Sequence record: PX915676.1
Source of the DNA: a phage
Length of the DNA stretch: 64,000 bases
Strand: one strand, 5' to 3'
A program made the position numbers and the translations under genes. The notes under the pieces are model-generated. The model saw only the letters and a program-made list of their open reading frames with translations, made no database searches and had not been told where the DNA came from. Numbering within the stretch: position 1 is the first letter of the stretch; every line of letters starts with the position of its first letter. Shown here piece after piece: positions 22,250 through 24,359 of this stretch.

Positions 22250-22328
22250 TCAATGGGTGCCTCTGATAAAGGGGCACAATTTAAAGGTTAATTAGATGAA
22301 AGGGTTTACCCTTCAGGTGGATTAGAAA

Positions 22329-24359
22329 ATTTGTGGCATCGTATTAGCTGGCGGTAATCTGTCAAGCACTGATTTAGACGTATTCAACCAACTCTTTTAC
22401 GCTGGAGTATTCCGAGGACAACATTCCTCCGGTATCTTTGGTCAGCGTAAAAGTACTAAGGAAGTCTTCACTTATAAAGAAGCTCTTCCTTCTTTCGCAT
22501 TCATCCTACAAGATGAGTACAAGAAGCACACCACTGGTGAGACAGCTTACACTGTAGCACCTTCATGGATTGTTGGTCACAGTCGTCATGCAACGAAAGG
22601 TGCAGTTAACGCCAAGAACGCCCATCCTTTCCAACATGGTAACATCACTCTGGTTCATAATGGAACCTTGATGGACCAAGATCTGTTACCTGACAGCAAA
22701 AACTTCGAGGTAGACAGTGAGAACATCTGCCACTCTATTAACACTATTGGTGCAGCAGAGACTATTCAAAAGCTGGATGGTGCTTTCACTTTAATCTGGC
22801 ATGATGCTTCTGATAACCGTCTTCATATCATCCGTAACGAAGAGCGTCCATTCCATCTCGCACGTTGTAACAGAGATTGGTTTGGTGCTTCTGAAGAAGA
22901 CATGTTGATGTGGATTCTGAAGCGTTCTAAGTCTCATAAGAACCGTATTGATGAGCATTTTGAATGTAAAGTTGGTACAGAATATATCTTTGATATGTCA
23001 AACAACAGCATGACTCTGGTTGAAGAGGTCGCCCACGAGCTTCCGGTTTTTACGGTAATCAATCGTTGGGGCAATTACTACTCGAACAACTACAGCCAAA
23101 GCAACTATCAAAGTTCCTCAAAAAGCAATACAAGCAATCCTTACGACACGAAGCCGGGAGTGACAGCGGCAGACGTTCGTCGAAGAAACGCAGTGGTAAG
23201 TCAAAACAAAATCGCAAGCGATCGAAACATTGATATTCGCCGCGATATGACTGTGGAAATCACTCCGCATGAGTTTGTTCCTTATGCAACTGCTGGTGCT
23301 GTTCCTTCTCGTGGTAAGATGATTGGCTATATCTACGATGAGAAGTCTCAAGAGTACATCGAAGGTGATGCTCATAATGTAGACATTAAGGCTTATCAGG
23401 ATGCACTGAAAGACCCTAAGATCGTTTACCGTGGGACAGTATCCTGCATCTCCGAAGTCAATGCTATGGTCCGTTTAGTGATCACAGCAGGTCGTTTTGT
23501 TGACCCATCTCTGGAGAAAAAGGAGCCTGAGTCAACTACTGCTGACTTCGATGATGATATCCCTTTTGATATGAATGATAGTTTCGTCAACAAGAATGGC
23601 GTTACTATCACTCGTAAATTCTGGGAAGCACACTCTCATGGTGATTGTGGTGGTTGTGACAAACACATTGATTGGAAAGATGCACCTAAAGCAGTCTTCG
23701 CATATCAATGCTACTGGCATCCTGAGTGTCTGGAAGGTTTGACTAAACCTAAAGAGGAAGAAGAGGAGGAAACTCCTATTGGTGTTTGTGAAATCTGCGG
23801 TGAAGTTAAAACAGAGAATGAGTTCGATGATGAACTTAGTCGTCTTCGTGGTGAAGATATCTGTAAAGTCTGCGCTGTAGAAGTAAAGAAGAAAGTATCT
23901 AATGCTACGATCAAAGATGGTTATGTATGGATTAAAGCAACAGATACAACAAACGCCCGTCGTCCTGAATTTGCTTTACGTGTAACTGAAGATATGATTG
24001 GTCGTATGACTGTATTACCTTCCTCAGCGAAACAGACAGGCATCACTCTGGAGGATGTTGTTGATGCTTATGTTGAGAAACGTAGCAACAGTATTTTTGC
24101 AATCTCAACTAAGCCAAAAAAGGAGGAACCTGCTGAGAAAGCAGGTGTGTTTCCTGAATCACGAACAGCTCTCCGCAAAACTGTTGTCAGCTTCGACGGA
24201 AACCGAAGCACTGACTTCACCAAAGCCATGTGGTCAACCCTCGGATACTGCTCAGAGTGTTTTAAGCAGATTCCGTGGCGCGATGCTGAAAGTTGTACGC
24301 TTGGTTCTATGAATCAAGTTTATTGTAATTCTCCTAAATGTTCATTGAATAGAGGTTAA
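22329..24359 (+). CDS. class II (Ntn, N-terminal Cys) glutamine amidotransferase domain fused to C-terminal Cys-rich zinc-ribbon modules; start codon unresolved
   Basis: Open frame from 22326; CGIV...HSRHATKG...NAHPF...VHNGTL...DSEN matches GlmS/PurF-type GATase motifs; no ATG/GTG/TTG precedes the Cys codon (22332); upstream ATG 22296 with SD opens a 9-codon ORF ending in in-frame TAG 22323; C-terminal CGGCDKH, CEICGEV...CKVC, CSEC clusters. Confidence 0.65.
   Translation: MCGIVLAGGNLSSTDLDVFNQLFYAGVFRGQHSSGIFGQRKSTKEVFTYKEALPSFAFILQDEYKKHTTGETAYTVAPSWIVGHSRHATKGAVNAKNAHPFQHGNITLVHNGTLMDQDLLPDSKNFEVDSENICHSINTIGAAETIQKLDGAFTLIWHDASDNRLHIIRNEERPFHLARCNRDWFGASEEDMLMWILKRSKSHKNRIDEHFECKVGTEYIFDMSNNSMTLVEEVAHELPVFTVINRWGNYYSNNYSQSNYQSSSKSNTSNPYDTKPGVTAADVRRRNAVVSQNKIASDRNIDIRRDMTVEITPHEFVPYATAGAVPSRGKMIGYIYDEKSQEYIEGDAHNVDIKAYQDALKDPKIVYRGTVSCISEVNAMVRLVITAGRFVDPSLEKKEPESTTADFDDDIPFDMNDSFVNKNGVTITRKFWEAHSHGDCGGCDKHIDWKDAPKAVFAYQCYWHPECLEGLTKPKEEEEEETPIGVCEICGEVKTENEFDDELSRLRGEDICKVCAVEVKKKVSNATIKDGYVWIKATDTTNARRPEFALRVTEDMIGRMTVLPSSAKQTGITLEDVVDAYVEKRSNSIFAISTKPKKEEPAEKAGVFPESRTALRKTVVSFDGNRSTDFTKAMWSTLGYCSECFKQIPWRDAESCTLGSMNQVYCNSPKCSLNRG

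What the first reader, a model, noticed from the sequence alone, without database searches (positions are those of the whole stretch)
22283..22340. Amidotransferase catalytic Cys lacks a canonical start codon; SD+ATG mini-ORF ends in in-frame TAG 6 nt upstream
Sequence reads AAAGG-N8-ATG AAA GGG TTT ACC CTT CAG GTG GAT TAG AAA ATT TGT GGC ATC GTA. The Cys codon (22332) is the obligate N-terminal nucleophile of a class II GATase, yet the first ATG/GTG/TTG in frame is about 112 codons downstream, inside the domain. Either translation starts at ATT 22329 (GGTGG lies 8 nt upstream; Met removal would expose Cys directly), or the gene starts at ATG 22296 and the TAG is read through, giving a roughly 11-residue propeptide as in some Ntn amidotransferases, or this is an amber/pseudogene allele or a sequencing error. 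TAG is used as a normal stop elsewhere (e.g. 34493-34495), so genome-wide recoding is unlikely. A second locus (14313-14326) also places AAGGAG 5 nt before an in-frame ATT ahead of a Cys-rich ORF.
Basis: seen in the sequence. Interest (0 to 1): 0.6.

Follow-up and report, generated by a model that had tools for sequence, protein, structure and literature searches.

The report
AUU-started phage amidotransferase with ultraconserved leader
A phage glutamine amidotransferase gene really does begin with the rare start codon ATT, placed exactly where relatives have ATG, and it sits in a 55-base leader (small hairpin, ribosome-binding site, nine-codon mini-ORF) that is almost unchanged across very different phages; this points to deliberately weak, controlled translation rather than an error.

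Summary
The window is a phiEco32-like coliphage, and the gene is phiEco32 gp83, a class II (Ntn) glutamine amidotransferase.

ATT 22329 is the start codon.
- Distant homologues have an SD plus ATG at exactly that position.
- AGGTGG lies 8 nt upstream.
- The 112 codons before the first canonical start vary mainly at third positions.
- GenBank has annotated the phiEco32 CDS from this ATT since 2008. It is the only ATT start among 128 CDSs there.

Sequencing error, pseudogene and genome-wide TAG recoding are excluded. TAG readthrough to a propeptide is unlikely.

New here:
1. Bases 22282-22336 are invariant in 15 distinct Gordonclarkvirinae sequences.
2. This stretch is the best-conserved DNA between the window and Aeromonas phage BUCT695, and it recurs in a metagenomic phage whose enzyme is about 42% identical.
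3. Its hairpin shows compensatory changes.
4. In one relative the mini-ORF is the 3' end of an upstream HTH gene that stops at the same TAG. The stop, 3 nt, AUU layout matches E. coli thrS-infC.
5. ATT or ATC starts recur in at least six unrelated lineages of this enzyme family.

Whether the mini-ORF drives reinitiation is inferred, not shown. The second ATT (14324) is a strain-specific ATG-to-ATT change.

The parts
21146..22249 (+). Upstream gene (phiEco32 gp84 homologue, Amidoligase_2). Its stop is TAA 22247-22249, 79 nt before the ATT.
   Evidence: ORF list; Pfam PF12224; annotation
22257..22277 (+). Intercistronic hairpin 1 (GUGCCUCU-GAUAA-AGGGGCAC). The stem is kept in other genera through a U:A to C:G change and a deleted pair, while the loops vary. 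A hairpin occupies the same position in the ATG-type relatives.
   Evidence: Fold; alignment; relatives
22282..22336 (+). Invariant 55-nt leader block: TAAAGGTTAATTAGATGAAAGGGTTTACCCTTCAGGTGGATTAGAAAATTTGTGG.
   Evidence: Longest invariant run among 15 distinct Gordonclarkvirinae sequences is 55 nt against a next-longest of 11. It is the highest-identity HSP and holds the longest exact match against the whole BUCT695 genome. It is the 10th longest exact match against the ECBP2 genome.
22283..22287 (+). Weak SD-like AAAGG, 8 nt before the mini-ORF ATG. It corresponds to the SD of the ATG-type relative L156. It reads AAATG in BUCT695 and L155.
22296..22325 (+). Nine-codon mini-ORF MKGFTLQVD ending in TAG. 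It is homologous to the 3' end of an upstream HTH_3 gene that ends at the same TAG in relative L146.
22297..22315 (+). Hairpin 2. The core stem pairs 22300-22304 with 22309-22313, and the loop is UUUA. It contains part of the mini-ORF ATG and abuts the SD of the ATT.
   Evidence: Fold. Two of five pairs show compensatory changes with 100% pairing, and slid controls score 0. L146 carries an inserted complementary A..U pair. The one BUCT695 change here lies in the loop.
22315..22320 (+). SD of the amidotransferase gene, AGGTGG, 8 nt before ATT. The BUCT695 change (T22318C) falls on the one position that does not pair with the anti-SD.
   Evidence: Duplex energies -5.9 and -5.8 kcal/mol
22323..22325 (+). 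TAG stop of the mini-ORF, in frame with the ATT and 3 nt before it. It is part of the recurrent GGAUUAG(A/U)AA spacer.
22329..22331 (+). ATT (AUU) initiation codon.
   Evidence: ATG at the same position in P59, 7-11, PKM, SJSY21, LAh9 and HP1. Annotated as the start in phiEco32, SU10, Bas91 and Bas87.
22332..22334 (+). TGT, the catalytic N-terminal Cys of the class II (Ntn) glutamine amidotransferase domain.
   Evidence: Invariant C2-G3 in alignment A2; profile aligns to Met1-Cys2 of GFAT1
22329..24359 (+). Full amidotransferase CDS: 676 codons plus stop, 76.1 kDa. N-terminal GATase_6 domain followed by a Cys-rich C-terminal part.
   Evidence: Variable columns by codon position in 22332-22667 are 28, 18 and 96 of 112 each.

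Best explanation
The gene for the phage class II glutamine amidotransferase (phiEco32 gp83 homologue) starts at AUU 22329. The initiator tRNA reads it as fMet, helped by the SD AGGUGG 8 nt upstream. Deformylase and methionine aminopeptidase then expose Cys1, as in homologues that start MCGI.

AUU is a poor start codon, so the gene is built for low or conditional translation. The start sits in a roughly 55-nt leader that is held almost invariant. The leader consists of a small hairpin directly 5' of the SD, the SD itself, an A-rich UUAGAAA spacer, and a nine-codon mini-ORF whose UAG lies 3 nt before the AUU.

The mini-ORF and hairpin are what is left of the 3' end of an upstream helix-turn-helix gene that in a relative still ends at that UAG. 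The stop, 3 nt, AUU layout is the same as at E. coli thrS-infC. The most likely working model has two parts. Ribosomes terminating at the UAG, held by the SD, reinitiate at AUU and add to weak de novo initiation. The hairpin shapes access to the site or stabilises the mRNA.

Shown: the start position, the SD, coding selection on the N-terminus, leader conservation, hairpin covariation, and the evolutionary origin of the mini-ORF.
Inferred: fMet initiation at AUU in vivo, low expression as the selected trait, reinitiation from the mini-ORF, and the role of the hairpin.
For: Start position:
- ATG occupies the ATT position in six distant phage homologues and in 63 of 78 IMG/VR loci.
- No canonical start lies between the upstream in-frame stop and Cys, either here or in L035, L036, L038, L046, L055 (ATT) and L091 (ATC). 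These share at most 47% identity with each other, and all have strong SDs 7-8 nt upstream.
- L055 (ATT) is 97% identical to L052 (ATG).
- ATT starts 1 of 128 annotated phiEco32 CDSs, namely this gene.
- Codons 2-113 vary at 28, 18 and 96 columns by codon position.
- The protein was detected by MS in SU10 lysates.

Leader conservation:
- A 55-nt invariant run against a next-longest of 11.
- The best-conserved segment against the BUCT695 genome: 88.6% identity against 65-81% elsewhere, and the longest exact match at 24 nt.
- The same leader in L155, whose enzyme is about 42% identical.
- The nine codons after ATT differ from BUCT695 by 4 synonymous changes and 1 non-synonymous change, while the 55-nt leader differs at only 2 nt. 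The conservation therefore reflects selection, not recent transfer.

Where the leader does change:
- The substitutions fall in the hairpin loop, in the unpaired SD position, or as compensatory stem pairs.

Origin and analogue:
- In L146 a 73-aa HTH_3 ORF ends at the same UAG, and BUCT695 keeps a decayed homologue.
- For the infC junction (UAA GGU AUU), Osterman et al. attributed about half of the initiation to reinitiation (PMC3592434).
Against: - There is no direct evidence of initiation at AUU. The published MS used a truncated 63.8-kDa model and could not see the N-terminus.
- The mini-ORF's own SD is weak here (-3.4 kcal/mol) and absent in BUCT695 and L155.
- Other ATT lineages (L035, L046, L091) have no ORF ending near the start. 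L151 has the same SD-spacer-ATT without the hairpin. Coupling is therefore not a general requirement.
- The UUAG(U/A)AA spacer occurs out of frame in L157, so the TAG may be conserved as spacer sequence rather than as a stop.
- Predicted folding of the leader is no more stable than shuffled sequence, with z about 0.
- An SD plus a 5-bp hairpin does not obviously explain invariance of all 55 nt. An unknown trans-acting partner may be involved.
Confidence: 0.6

Rival explanations
1. AUU is the start, but the mini-ORF is an untranslated relic. The invariant leader is instead an operator for a trans-acting factor: a phage or host RNA-binding protein, a small RNA, or at DNA level a protein that recognises the AAGGGTTTACCCTT palindrome. 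That factor switches translation or transcription of the amidotransferase gene.
For: - Every one of 55 nt is invariant, including mini-ORF wobble positions.
- The mini-ORF SD is absent in BUCT695 and L155.
- The hairpin has a bulged-A, tetraloop shape typical of protein-bound operators.
- An HTH_3 gene sits next to the palindrome in L146, L157 and, decayed, in BUCT695.
- AUUAGA direct repeats flank the hairpin.
Against: - The stem covaries and keeps pairing rather than keeping its sequence. That favours RNA structure over a fixed DNA recognition sequence.
- Gordonclarkvirinae have no homologue of the HTH gene yet keep the element invariant.
- The motif occurs only once in the window.
- There is no Rfam match.
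Confidence: 0.22
2. Translation starts at AUG 22296 and the UAG is read through at some frequency. This gives a 12-residue propeptide (MKGFTLQVDxKI) that is removed autocatalytically to expose Cys1, as in B. subtilis PurF.
For: - The mini-ORF is in frame with the gene, and the AUG-to-UAG frame is kept in Gordonclarkvirinae, BUCT695 and L155.
- In relative L152 the stretch reads TAG GTG ACT AAA ATT TGT. There is no stop between a GTG (SD AAAGGA 5 nt upstream) and the Cys, so a 4-residue extension is conceivable there.
- Propeptides are known in some Ntn amidotransferases (established knowledge).
Against: - No suppressor tRNA in the window or in BUCT695.
- TAG ends 14 of 128 phiEco32 genes.
- L146 has two consecutive in-frame stops, UAG UAA, before AUU.
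- The peptide is not conserved (F4L, V8A, L6P). Each change maps to a loop, an SD mismatch position or a compensatory stem position.
- The codon before Cys is always ATG, GTG, TTG, ATT or ATC across the family, which a propeptide would not require.
- In L152 the GTG is also part of an AGGTGA SD 5 nt before ATT.
Confidence: 0.05
3. The protein starts at an internal canonical codon (TTG 22668 or ATG 22671, or ATG at codon 11 in Suseptimavirus) and lacks the catalytic Cys. The upstream part would be non-coding, or the gene a decaying pseudogene, or the ATT a sequencing error.
For: Several GenBank records annotate it this way: ECBP2, SU7, KBNP1711, EP335 and BUCT695 start 10-58 codons downstream of the ATT. 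The SU10 proteomics used a 63.8-kDa model.
Against: - Variation is dominated by third positions over codons 2-113, at 28, 18 and 96 columns.
- Cys-Gly and the RG.HS.G motif are invariant in the 'missing' part.
- The ATT is identical in about 99 records and in metagenomes.
- The internal starts differ from record to record and are gene-caller artefacts.
Confidence: 0.03

Closest known systems
E. coli thrS-infC junction (AUU start of infC)
   Same: A near-cognate AUU start codon lies 3 nt after the stop codon of an upstream ORF, with an SD inside that ORF. Expression is then the sum of weak de novo initiation and reinitiation, and it is sensitive to IF3 discrimination (PMC3592434; IF3 autoregulation from established knowledge).
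   Different: The upstream ORF here is only nine codons and is a relic of a lost gene. A conserved hairpin sits directly 5' of the SD. The gene product is unrelated to translation, so no autoregulatory loop is evident. IF3 dependence has not been tested.
Class II (Ntn) glutamine amidotransferase domains (GlmS/GFAT, PurF, AsnB; Pfam GATase_6/7/4)
   Same: Cys comes directly after the initiator Met. The R-x-A-T-x-G, NAHP, HNG and D-S-E motifs align with GlmS.
   Different: This is a phage-specific family with a long Cys-rich C-terminal region and no known acceptor domain. It sits in the phiEco32-type amidoligase / COOH-NH2 ligase / ATP-grasp cluster, whose product is unknown. ATT and ATC starts are unusually frequent.
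Phage T4 'split' or structured ribosome-binding sites (genes 38 and 25), where a hairpin between the SD and the start codon sets the spacing (recalled from memory, not checked here)
   Same: In the predicted fold, 22288-22325 forms one extended stem-loop. That leaves the ancestral SD AAAGG only 3 nt from AUU. The closest ATG-type relative has the same AAAGG 7 nt from its ATG, with no insert.
   Different: The outer stem is weak (A:U and G:U pairs only). AAAGG is replaced by AAATG in BUCT695 and L155, which keep the rest of the leader. A second SD (AGGUGG) at the ideal spacing makes the split arrangement unnecessary.
Propeptide-bearing Ntn amidotransferases (B. subtilis PurF, GltB)
   Same: In-frame codons precede the catalytic Cys.
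   Different: A stop codon intervenes here, or two in L146. The preceding peptide is not conserved, and no readthrough device was found.

Membership tests
Class II (Ntn) glutamine amidotransferase | Catalytic Cys as the first residue of the mature protein (Met-Cys at the start) | tested here: met
   TGT follows the ATT directly. Homologues start MCG(I/L). The profile aligns positions 1-2 with Met1-Cys2 of GFAT1.
Class II (Ntn) glutamine amidotransferase | Sequence match to curated GATase class II models above threshold, with conserved glutamine-site motifs | tested here: met
   PF13522 GATase_6 at 54.9 bits (cut-off 27) and PF13537 at 27.4 bits (cut-off 25). The alignment to GlmS 1xff covers the HxRxATxG, NAHP, vHNG and DSE motifs.
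Class II (Ntn) glutamine amidotransferase | Ntn alpha-beta-beta-alpha fold and glutaminase activity | not tested
   No structure prediction was run. The enzyme activity is unknown.
Non-AUG (AUU) initiated bacterial/phage genes | Near-cognate codon at the position homologous to the start codon of relatives, with no canonical in-frame start upstream | tested here: met
Non-AUG (AUU) initiated bacterial/phage genes | SD at functional spacing | tested here: met
   AGGUGG 8 nt upstream at -5.9 kcal/mol. The same 7-8 nt spacing is seen in all other ATT/ATC lineages.
Non-AUG (AUU) initiated bacterial/phage genes | Experimental proof of initiation (N-terminus, toeprint) | not testable with these tools
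   The only proteomics found used a truncated model.
Termination-reinitiation (translationally coupled) junction of the infC type | Upstream ORF stop within a few nt of the downstream start, with an SD inside the upstream ORF | tested here: met
   UAG, then AAA, then AUU. AGGUGG lies inside the mini-ORF. The same UAG ends a 73-aa ORF in L146.
Termination-reinitiation (translationally coupled) junction of the infC type | The upstream ORF is translated, and downstream expression depends on it | tested here: inconclusive
   The mini-ORF SD is weak or absent. The ORF is kept in three lineages, but the sequences vary too little to show selection for it. Some ATT lineages lack any coupled ORF.
Programmed stop-codon readthrough or recoding | Suppressor tRNA, recoding signal or reassigned TAG | tested here: not met
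Known structured cis-regulatory RNA (Rfam) | Match to a curated covariance model | tested here: not met
   Only chance-level hits, E 1.7-8, far below gathering scores.

The most novel reading that the evidence does not exclude
The hairpin, SD, UUAGAAA spacer and AUU together form a previously undescribed cis-regulatory RNA module. It would make synthesis of a phage Ntn amidotransferase depend on the state of the host initiation machinery (for example IF3 availability during takeover) or on an unidentified trans-acting protein or RNA. On this reading, the repeated independent adoption of AUU or AUC, rather than GUG or UUG, across this enzyme family reflects a specific functional requirement for a near-cognate start.
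Probability: 0.2. Interest if true: 0.65.

Novelty: new member of a known kind. Interest (0 to 1): 0.45.

Why it matters
Annotation. Gene callers that do not allow ATT cut off the catalytic Cys domain of this enzyme in many phage records. ECBP2, SU7, KBNP1711, EP335 and BUCT695 are affected, and so was the database used for the SU10 proteomics. About one in five database homologues of the family lack the MCG start. These entries are mis-annotated as shorter and catalytically dead.

Biology. Conserved AUU starts are very rare in bacteria (infC, pcnB). Here a whole phage enzyme family adopts ATT or ATC repeatedly, and one clade has wrapped the start in the most conserved stretch of DNA it shares with a distant phage. 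That gives a compact natural system of about 70 nt for asking how near-cognate initiation, an upstream mini-ORF and a flanking hairpin set expression during infection. It also shows how the relic of a lost gene can be kept as a translational leader. Finally, it hints that the dose of the still-uncharacterised amidoligase/amidotransferase pathway of phiEco32-like phages is tightly controlled.

Tried and rejected
- Rfam at a permissive E-value over 21500-23000 gave only noise.
- The sigma-70 promoter and terminator scan, and the phiEco32 gp36 promoter consensus tAATGTAtA, found nothing in the leader. The SU10 promoter table lists no promoter near this gene.
- Thermodynamic folding of the leader is no better than shuffled sequence. 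I do not claim a stable global structure, only the local hairpin.
- No second copy of the hairpin or spacer motif exists in the window.
- GC skew shows no inflection here, so an origin is unlikely.
- Frameshift and bypass readings fail. The other two frames run into stops within 5-9 codons, and there is no matching landing codon for GAU (read from the sequence).
- Pattern scans of IMG/VR and metagenomes for leader variants returned only identical leaders plus chance hits.
- A search for relatives of the L146 HTH protein in IMG/VR found none.
- CsrA-type or RegA-type sites were considered by eye. There is only one GGA and only partial resemblance, so I did not pursue them.
- The original phiEco32 papers (PMC2587145, PMC3275717) are not held. 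I could not check whether the ATT start was discussed in print.
- The svsR sRNA paper on Kuravirus infection proved irrelevant.
- I built no covariance model because the leader varies too little.
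Full report

The window is a phiEco32-like coliphage (Kuravirus, Gordonclarkvirinae). Bases 22100-22700 match 97 phage records, most at 95-99.5% identity. The finding reads exactly as described:
- AAAGG 22283-22287, then 8 nt, then ATG 22296.
- Eight sense codons, then TAG 22323-22325.
- AAA, ATT 22329, TGT 22332.
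- The open frame continues to the stop at 24357-24359.

The first canonical in-frame start is TTG 22668, which is codon 114. The protein matches Pfam GATase_6 and GATase_7 above threshold. A profile of the family aligns its first two positions with Met1-Cys2 of human GFAT1, and its core motifs with E. coli GlmS.

**The ATT is the start codon**

- Six distant phage homologues have an SD followed by ATG at exactly the ATT position, giving MCG(I/L)V. They are Proteus P59, Salmonella 7-11 and PKM.Hi.22.6, Vibrio SJSY21, Aeromonas LAh_9 and Pseudoalteromonas HP1, at 46-54% identity by tblastn (sequences).
- Among 78 IMG/VR loci of the family, the codon before Cys is ATG in 63, ATT in 10, ATC in 1, TTG in 2 and GTG in 1. 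It is never an ordinary sense codon.
- Five of the ATT loci are phiEco32-like. The other five ATT loci and the ATC locus share at most 47% identity with each other.
- None of those six has a canonical start between the upstream in-frame stop and Cys. Each has a strong SD 7-8 nt upstream.
- One of them, L055, is 97% identical to a locus that has ATG.
- In the window, AGGTGG lies 8 nt upstream and pairs with the anti-SD at -5.9 kcal/mol.
- The 112 codons between Cys and the first canonical start vary at 28, 18 and 96 columns by codon position across 15 Gordonclarkvirinae sequences. They are therefore translated.
- The original phiEco32 GenBank record already starts gp83 at this ATT. It is the only ATT among 128 CDSs, the rest being 112 ATG, 13 GTG and 2 TTG. 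SU10, Bas91 and Bas87 do the same.
- Five other records start the gene 10-58 codons downstream and so lose the catalytic Cys.
- SU10 proteomics detected the protein, but against a 63.8-kDa truncated model. The N-terminus has therefore not been seen.

**Error, pseudogene, recoding and readthrough**

The ATT and TAG are identical in about 99 phage records and in independent metagenome contigs. TAG ends 14 of 128 phiEco32 genes. The window encodes only tRNA-Arg(TCT), and BUCT695 encodes no suppressor.

Three amino-acid changes occur in the mini-ORF between lineages:
- F4L lies in the hairpin loop.
- V8A lies at the unpaired SD position.
- L6P is one half of a compensatory stem pair.

The only synonymous change is the other half of that stem pair. 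The peptide itself is therefore not what is conserved. In relative L146 two in-frame stops (UAG UAA) precede the AUU. Readthrough to a propeptide is therefore unlikely. The one observation in its favour is relative L152, which reads TAG GTG ACT AAA ATT TGT with no stop between the GTG and the Cys. Even there, the GTG is also part of an AGGTGA SD 5 nt before the ATT.

**The leader is under exceptional constraint**

- In 15 distinct Gordonclarkvirinae sequences from three genera, whose flanks are about 83-85% identical, bases 22282-22336 are invariant. This is a run of 55 nt, and the next longest in the 700-nt region is 11.
- Against the whole genome of ECBP2, a different genus, the 58-nt exact match ranks tenth. 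It is outstanding but not unique.
- Against the whole genome of Aeromonas phage BUCT695 (family Grimontviridae), coding regions align at 65-81% identity. The leader aligns at 88.6% and contains the longest exact match between the two genomes.
- A 53-kb metagenomic contig, L155, carries the same leader although its enzyme is only about 42% identical.
- The nine codons after the ATT already show four synonymous differences and one non-synonymous difference from BUCT695, while the 55-nt leader shows two. The conservation therefore reflects purifying selection, not recent transfer.

**Anatomy and evolution of the leader**

A local hairpin, with core 22300-22304 paired to 22309-22313, lies directly 5' of the SD. 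Evidence for it:
- Across the window, BUCT695, L155 and L157, all cells pair and two of five pairs change on both sides. Slid controls give none.
- L146 has an inserted complementary A..U pair next to the loop.

The closest ATG-type relative is L156, at 67% identity. It lacks the hairpin and mini-ORF and reads AATTTAAAGGAAAAGATA-ATG. In the window clade, about 40 nt therefore lie between that ancestral AAAGG and the start.

In L146 a 73-aa ORF with an HTH_3 domain (Pfam E 2.9e-5) reads through the hairpin and stops at the very UAG that ends the mini-ORF here. BUCT695 retains a decayed homologue, 68% identical over 37 aa, next to an HNH-like fragment. L157 has an intact HTH ORF, then a hairpin, then an SD and a TTG start. 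Gordonclarkvirinae have no homologue. The mini-ORF is thus the vestigial 3' end of a lost upstream gene, now with its own AUG.

**How it most likely works**

Shown: the start position, the SD, coding selection on the N-terminus, the constraint on the leader, the hairpin, and the origin of the mini-ORF.

Inferred: AUU gives weak, IF3-sensitive initiation. Ribosomes finishing the mini-ORF at UAG, 3 nt before AUU and tethered by the SD inside the mini-ORF, reinitiate at AUU. This is what was found for the identical stop, 3 nt, AUU layout of thrS-infC, where about half of the initiation was attributed to reinitiation (PMC3592434).

Points against the coupling part:
- The mini-ORF SD is weak here and absent in BUCT695 and L155.
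- Some ATT lineages have no coupled ORF.
- The UUAG(U/A)AA spacer also occurs out of frame in L157.
- An SD plus a 5-bp stem does not explain invariance of all 55 nt.

An operator for an unknown protein or RNA therefore remains a serious rival.

My confidence that AUU is the start is about 0.9. My confidence that the mini-ORF contributes by reinitiation is about 0.4-0.5.

**Comparison with what is known, and novelty**

The enzyme is a member of the class II (Ntn) amidotransferases. The sequence criteria are met, but fold and activity were not tested. The start belongs to the known kind 'AUU initiation next to an upstream stop'. The ATT start itself is already in GenBank. The following were not found in any paper I could search, and the original phiEco32 papers were not available:
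- the ultraconserved leader;
- its hairpin covariation;
- its origin as a gene relic;
- the recurrence of ATT and ATC starts across the family.

**The second locus**

At 14313-14326, AAGGAG is followed 5 nt later by ATT 14324, opening a 57-codon Cys-rich ORF. phiEco32, SU10, Paul and CHD5UKE1 all have ATG there and annotate the same ORF. This is a strain-specific ATG-to-ATT change or a read error, not a conserved feature.

Noticed in passing
window 14313-14497: The second ATT named in the finding (ATT 14324, 5 nt after AAGGAG) opens a 57-codon Cys-rich ORF (ISCFGGGEVDDDDDMESNGTCPDCGCE...). In phiEco32 (phi32_103), SU10, Paul and CHD5UKE1 the same codon is ATG. This phage therefore carries a strain-specific ATG-to-ATT change, or a sequencing error, in a start codon.
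   Followed up: partly
L008 3304-3505 (BUCT695); L146 1-222; L157 about 90-190: In some relatives an HTH_3-type gene lies between the amidoligase and amidotransferase genes. It is intact in L146 (73 aa, ending at the UAG before AUU) and in L157. In BUCT695 it is split and decayed, with an HNH-like N-terminal fragment (MDKVLKKITHQGDCWLWTGCINSDGYPKE). It may be a former homing-endonuclease-like insertion.
   Followed up: partly
L004, L005, L006, L008, L135 (GenBank/RefSeq records of ECBP2, KBNP1711, EP335, BUCT695, SU7): In these records the amidotransferase CDS starts at an internal ATG or GTG 10-58 codons after the ATT, which removes the catalytic Cys. 23 of 120 database homologues likewise do not start with MCG. 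The SU10 proteomics paper used a 63.8-kDa model instead of the 76-kDa protein.
   Followed up: yes
L009, L020-L023, L008 and others, 20-40 nt upstream of the amidotransferase start: ATG-type relatives share a hairpin followed by TTTAAATGTAAA(A/T). This contains an AUG-UAA start-stop pair and also resembles the core of the phiEco32 gp36 promoter (AATGTA.A). In the window it has become TTTAAAGGT. I did not resolve whether it is a promoter, a start-stop element or a terminator tail.
   Followed up: no
IMG/VR loci L035, L036, L038, L046, L055, L091; also L148, L151, L153 (ATT/ATC) and L057, L068, L143, L147, L154, L157 (TTG), L066, L145 (GTG): Weak start codons are unusually common in this phage amidotransferase family, and ATT outnumbers GTG and TTG combined. 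L035 and L046 are only 42% identical in protein yet share an identical 23-nt start region, GGAGATGAGAAAATTTGTGGAAT.
   Followed up: partly
L152 1480-1515: This relative reads TAG GTG ACT AAA ATT TGT. No stop lies between a GTG with its own SD and the Cys, so either a 4-residue N-terminal extension is made or ATT is used with the AGGTGA SD.
   Followed up: no
window 22257-22277: The hairpin after the amidoligase stop keeps its stem across genera through a compensatory U:A to C:G change, with variable loops (GAUAA, GAAA, UAUAC). One GenBank record annotates it as a terminator, but only three U residues follow it.
   Followed up: partly
window 478-587, 5666-5753, 6605-6719, 6912-7017: These stretches are exact matches of 88-115 nt to ECBP2, a different genus, and are longer than the leader match. 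I did not examine what they are.
   Followed up: no
window 22331-22357: Because the start is AUU-UGU, a canonical UUG (22331) overlaps it in the +2 frame and opens an 8-codon ORF that ends at TAA 22355. This ORF is not kept in ECBP2-like phages. It could compete with AUU for the same SD.
   Followed up: no
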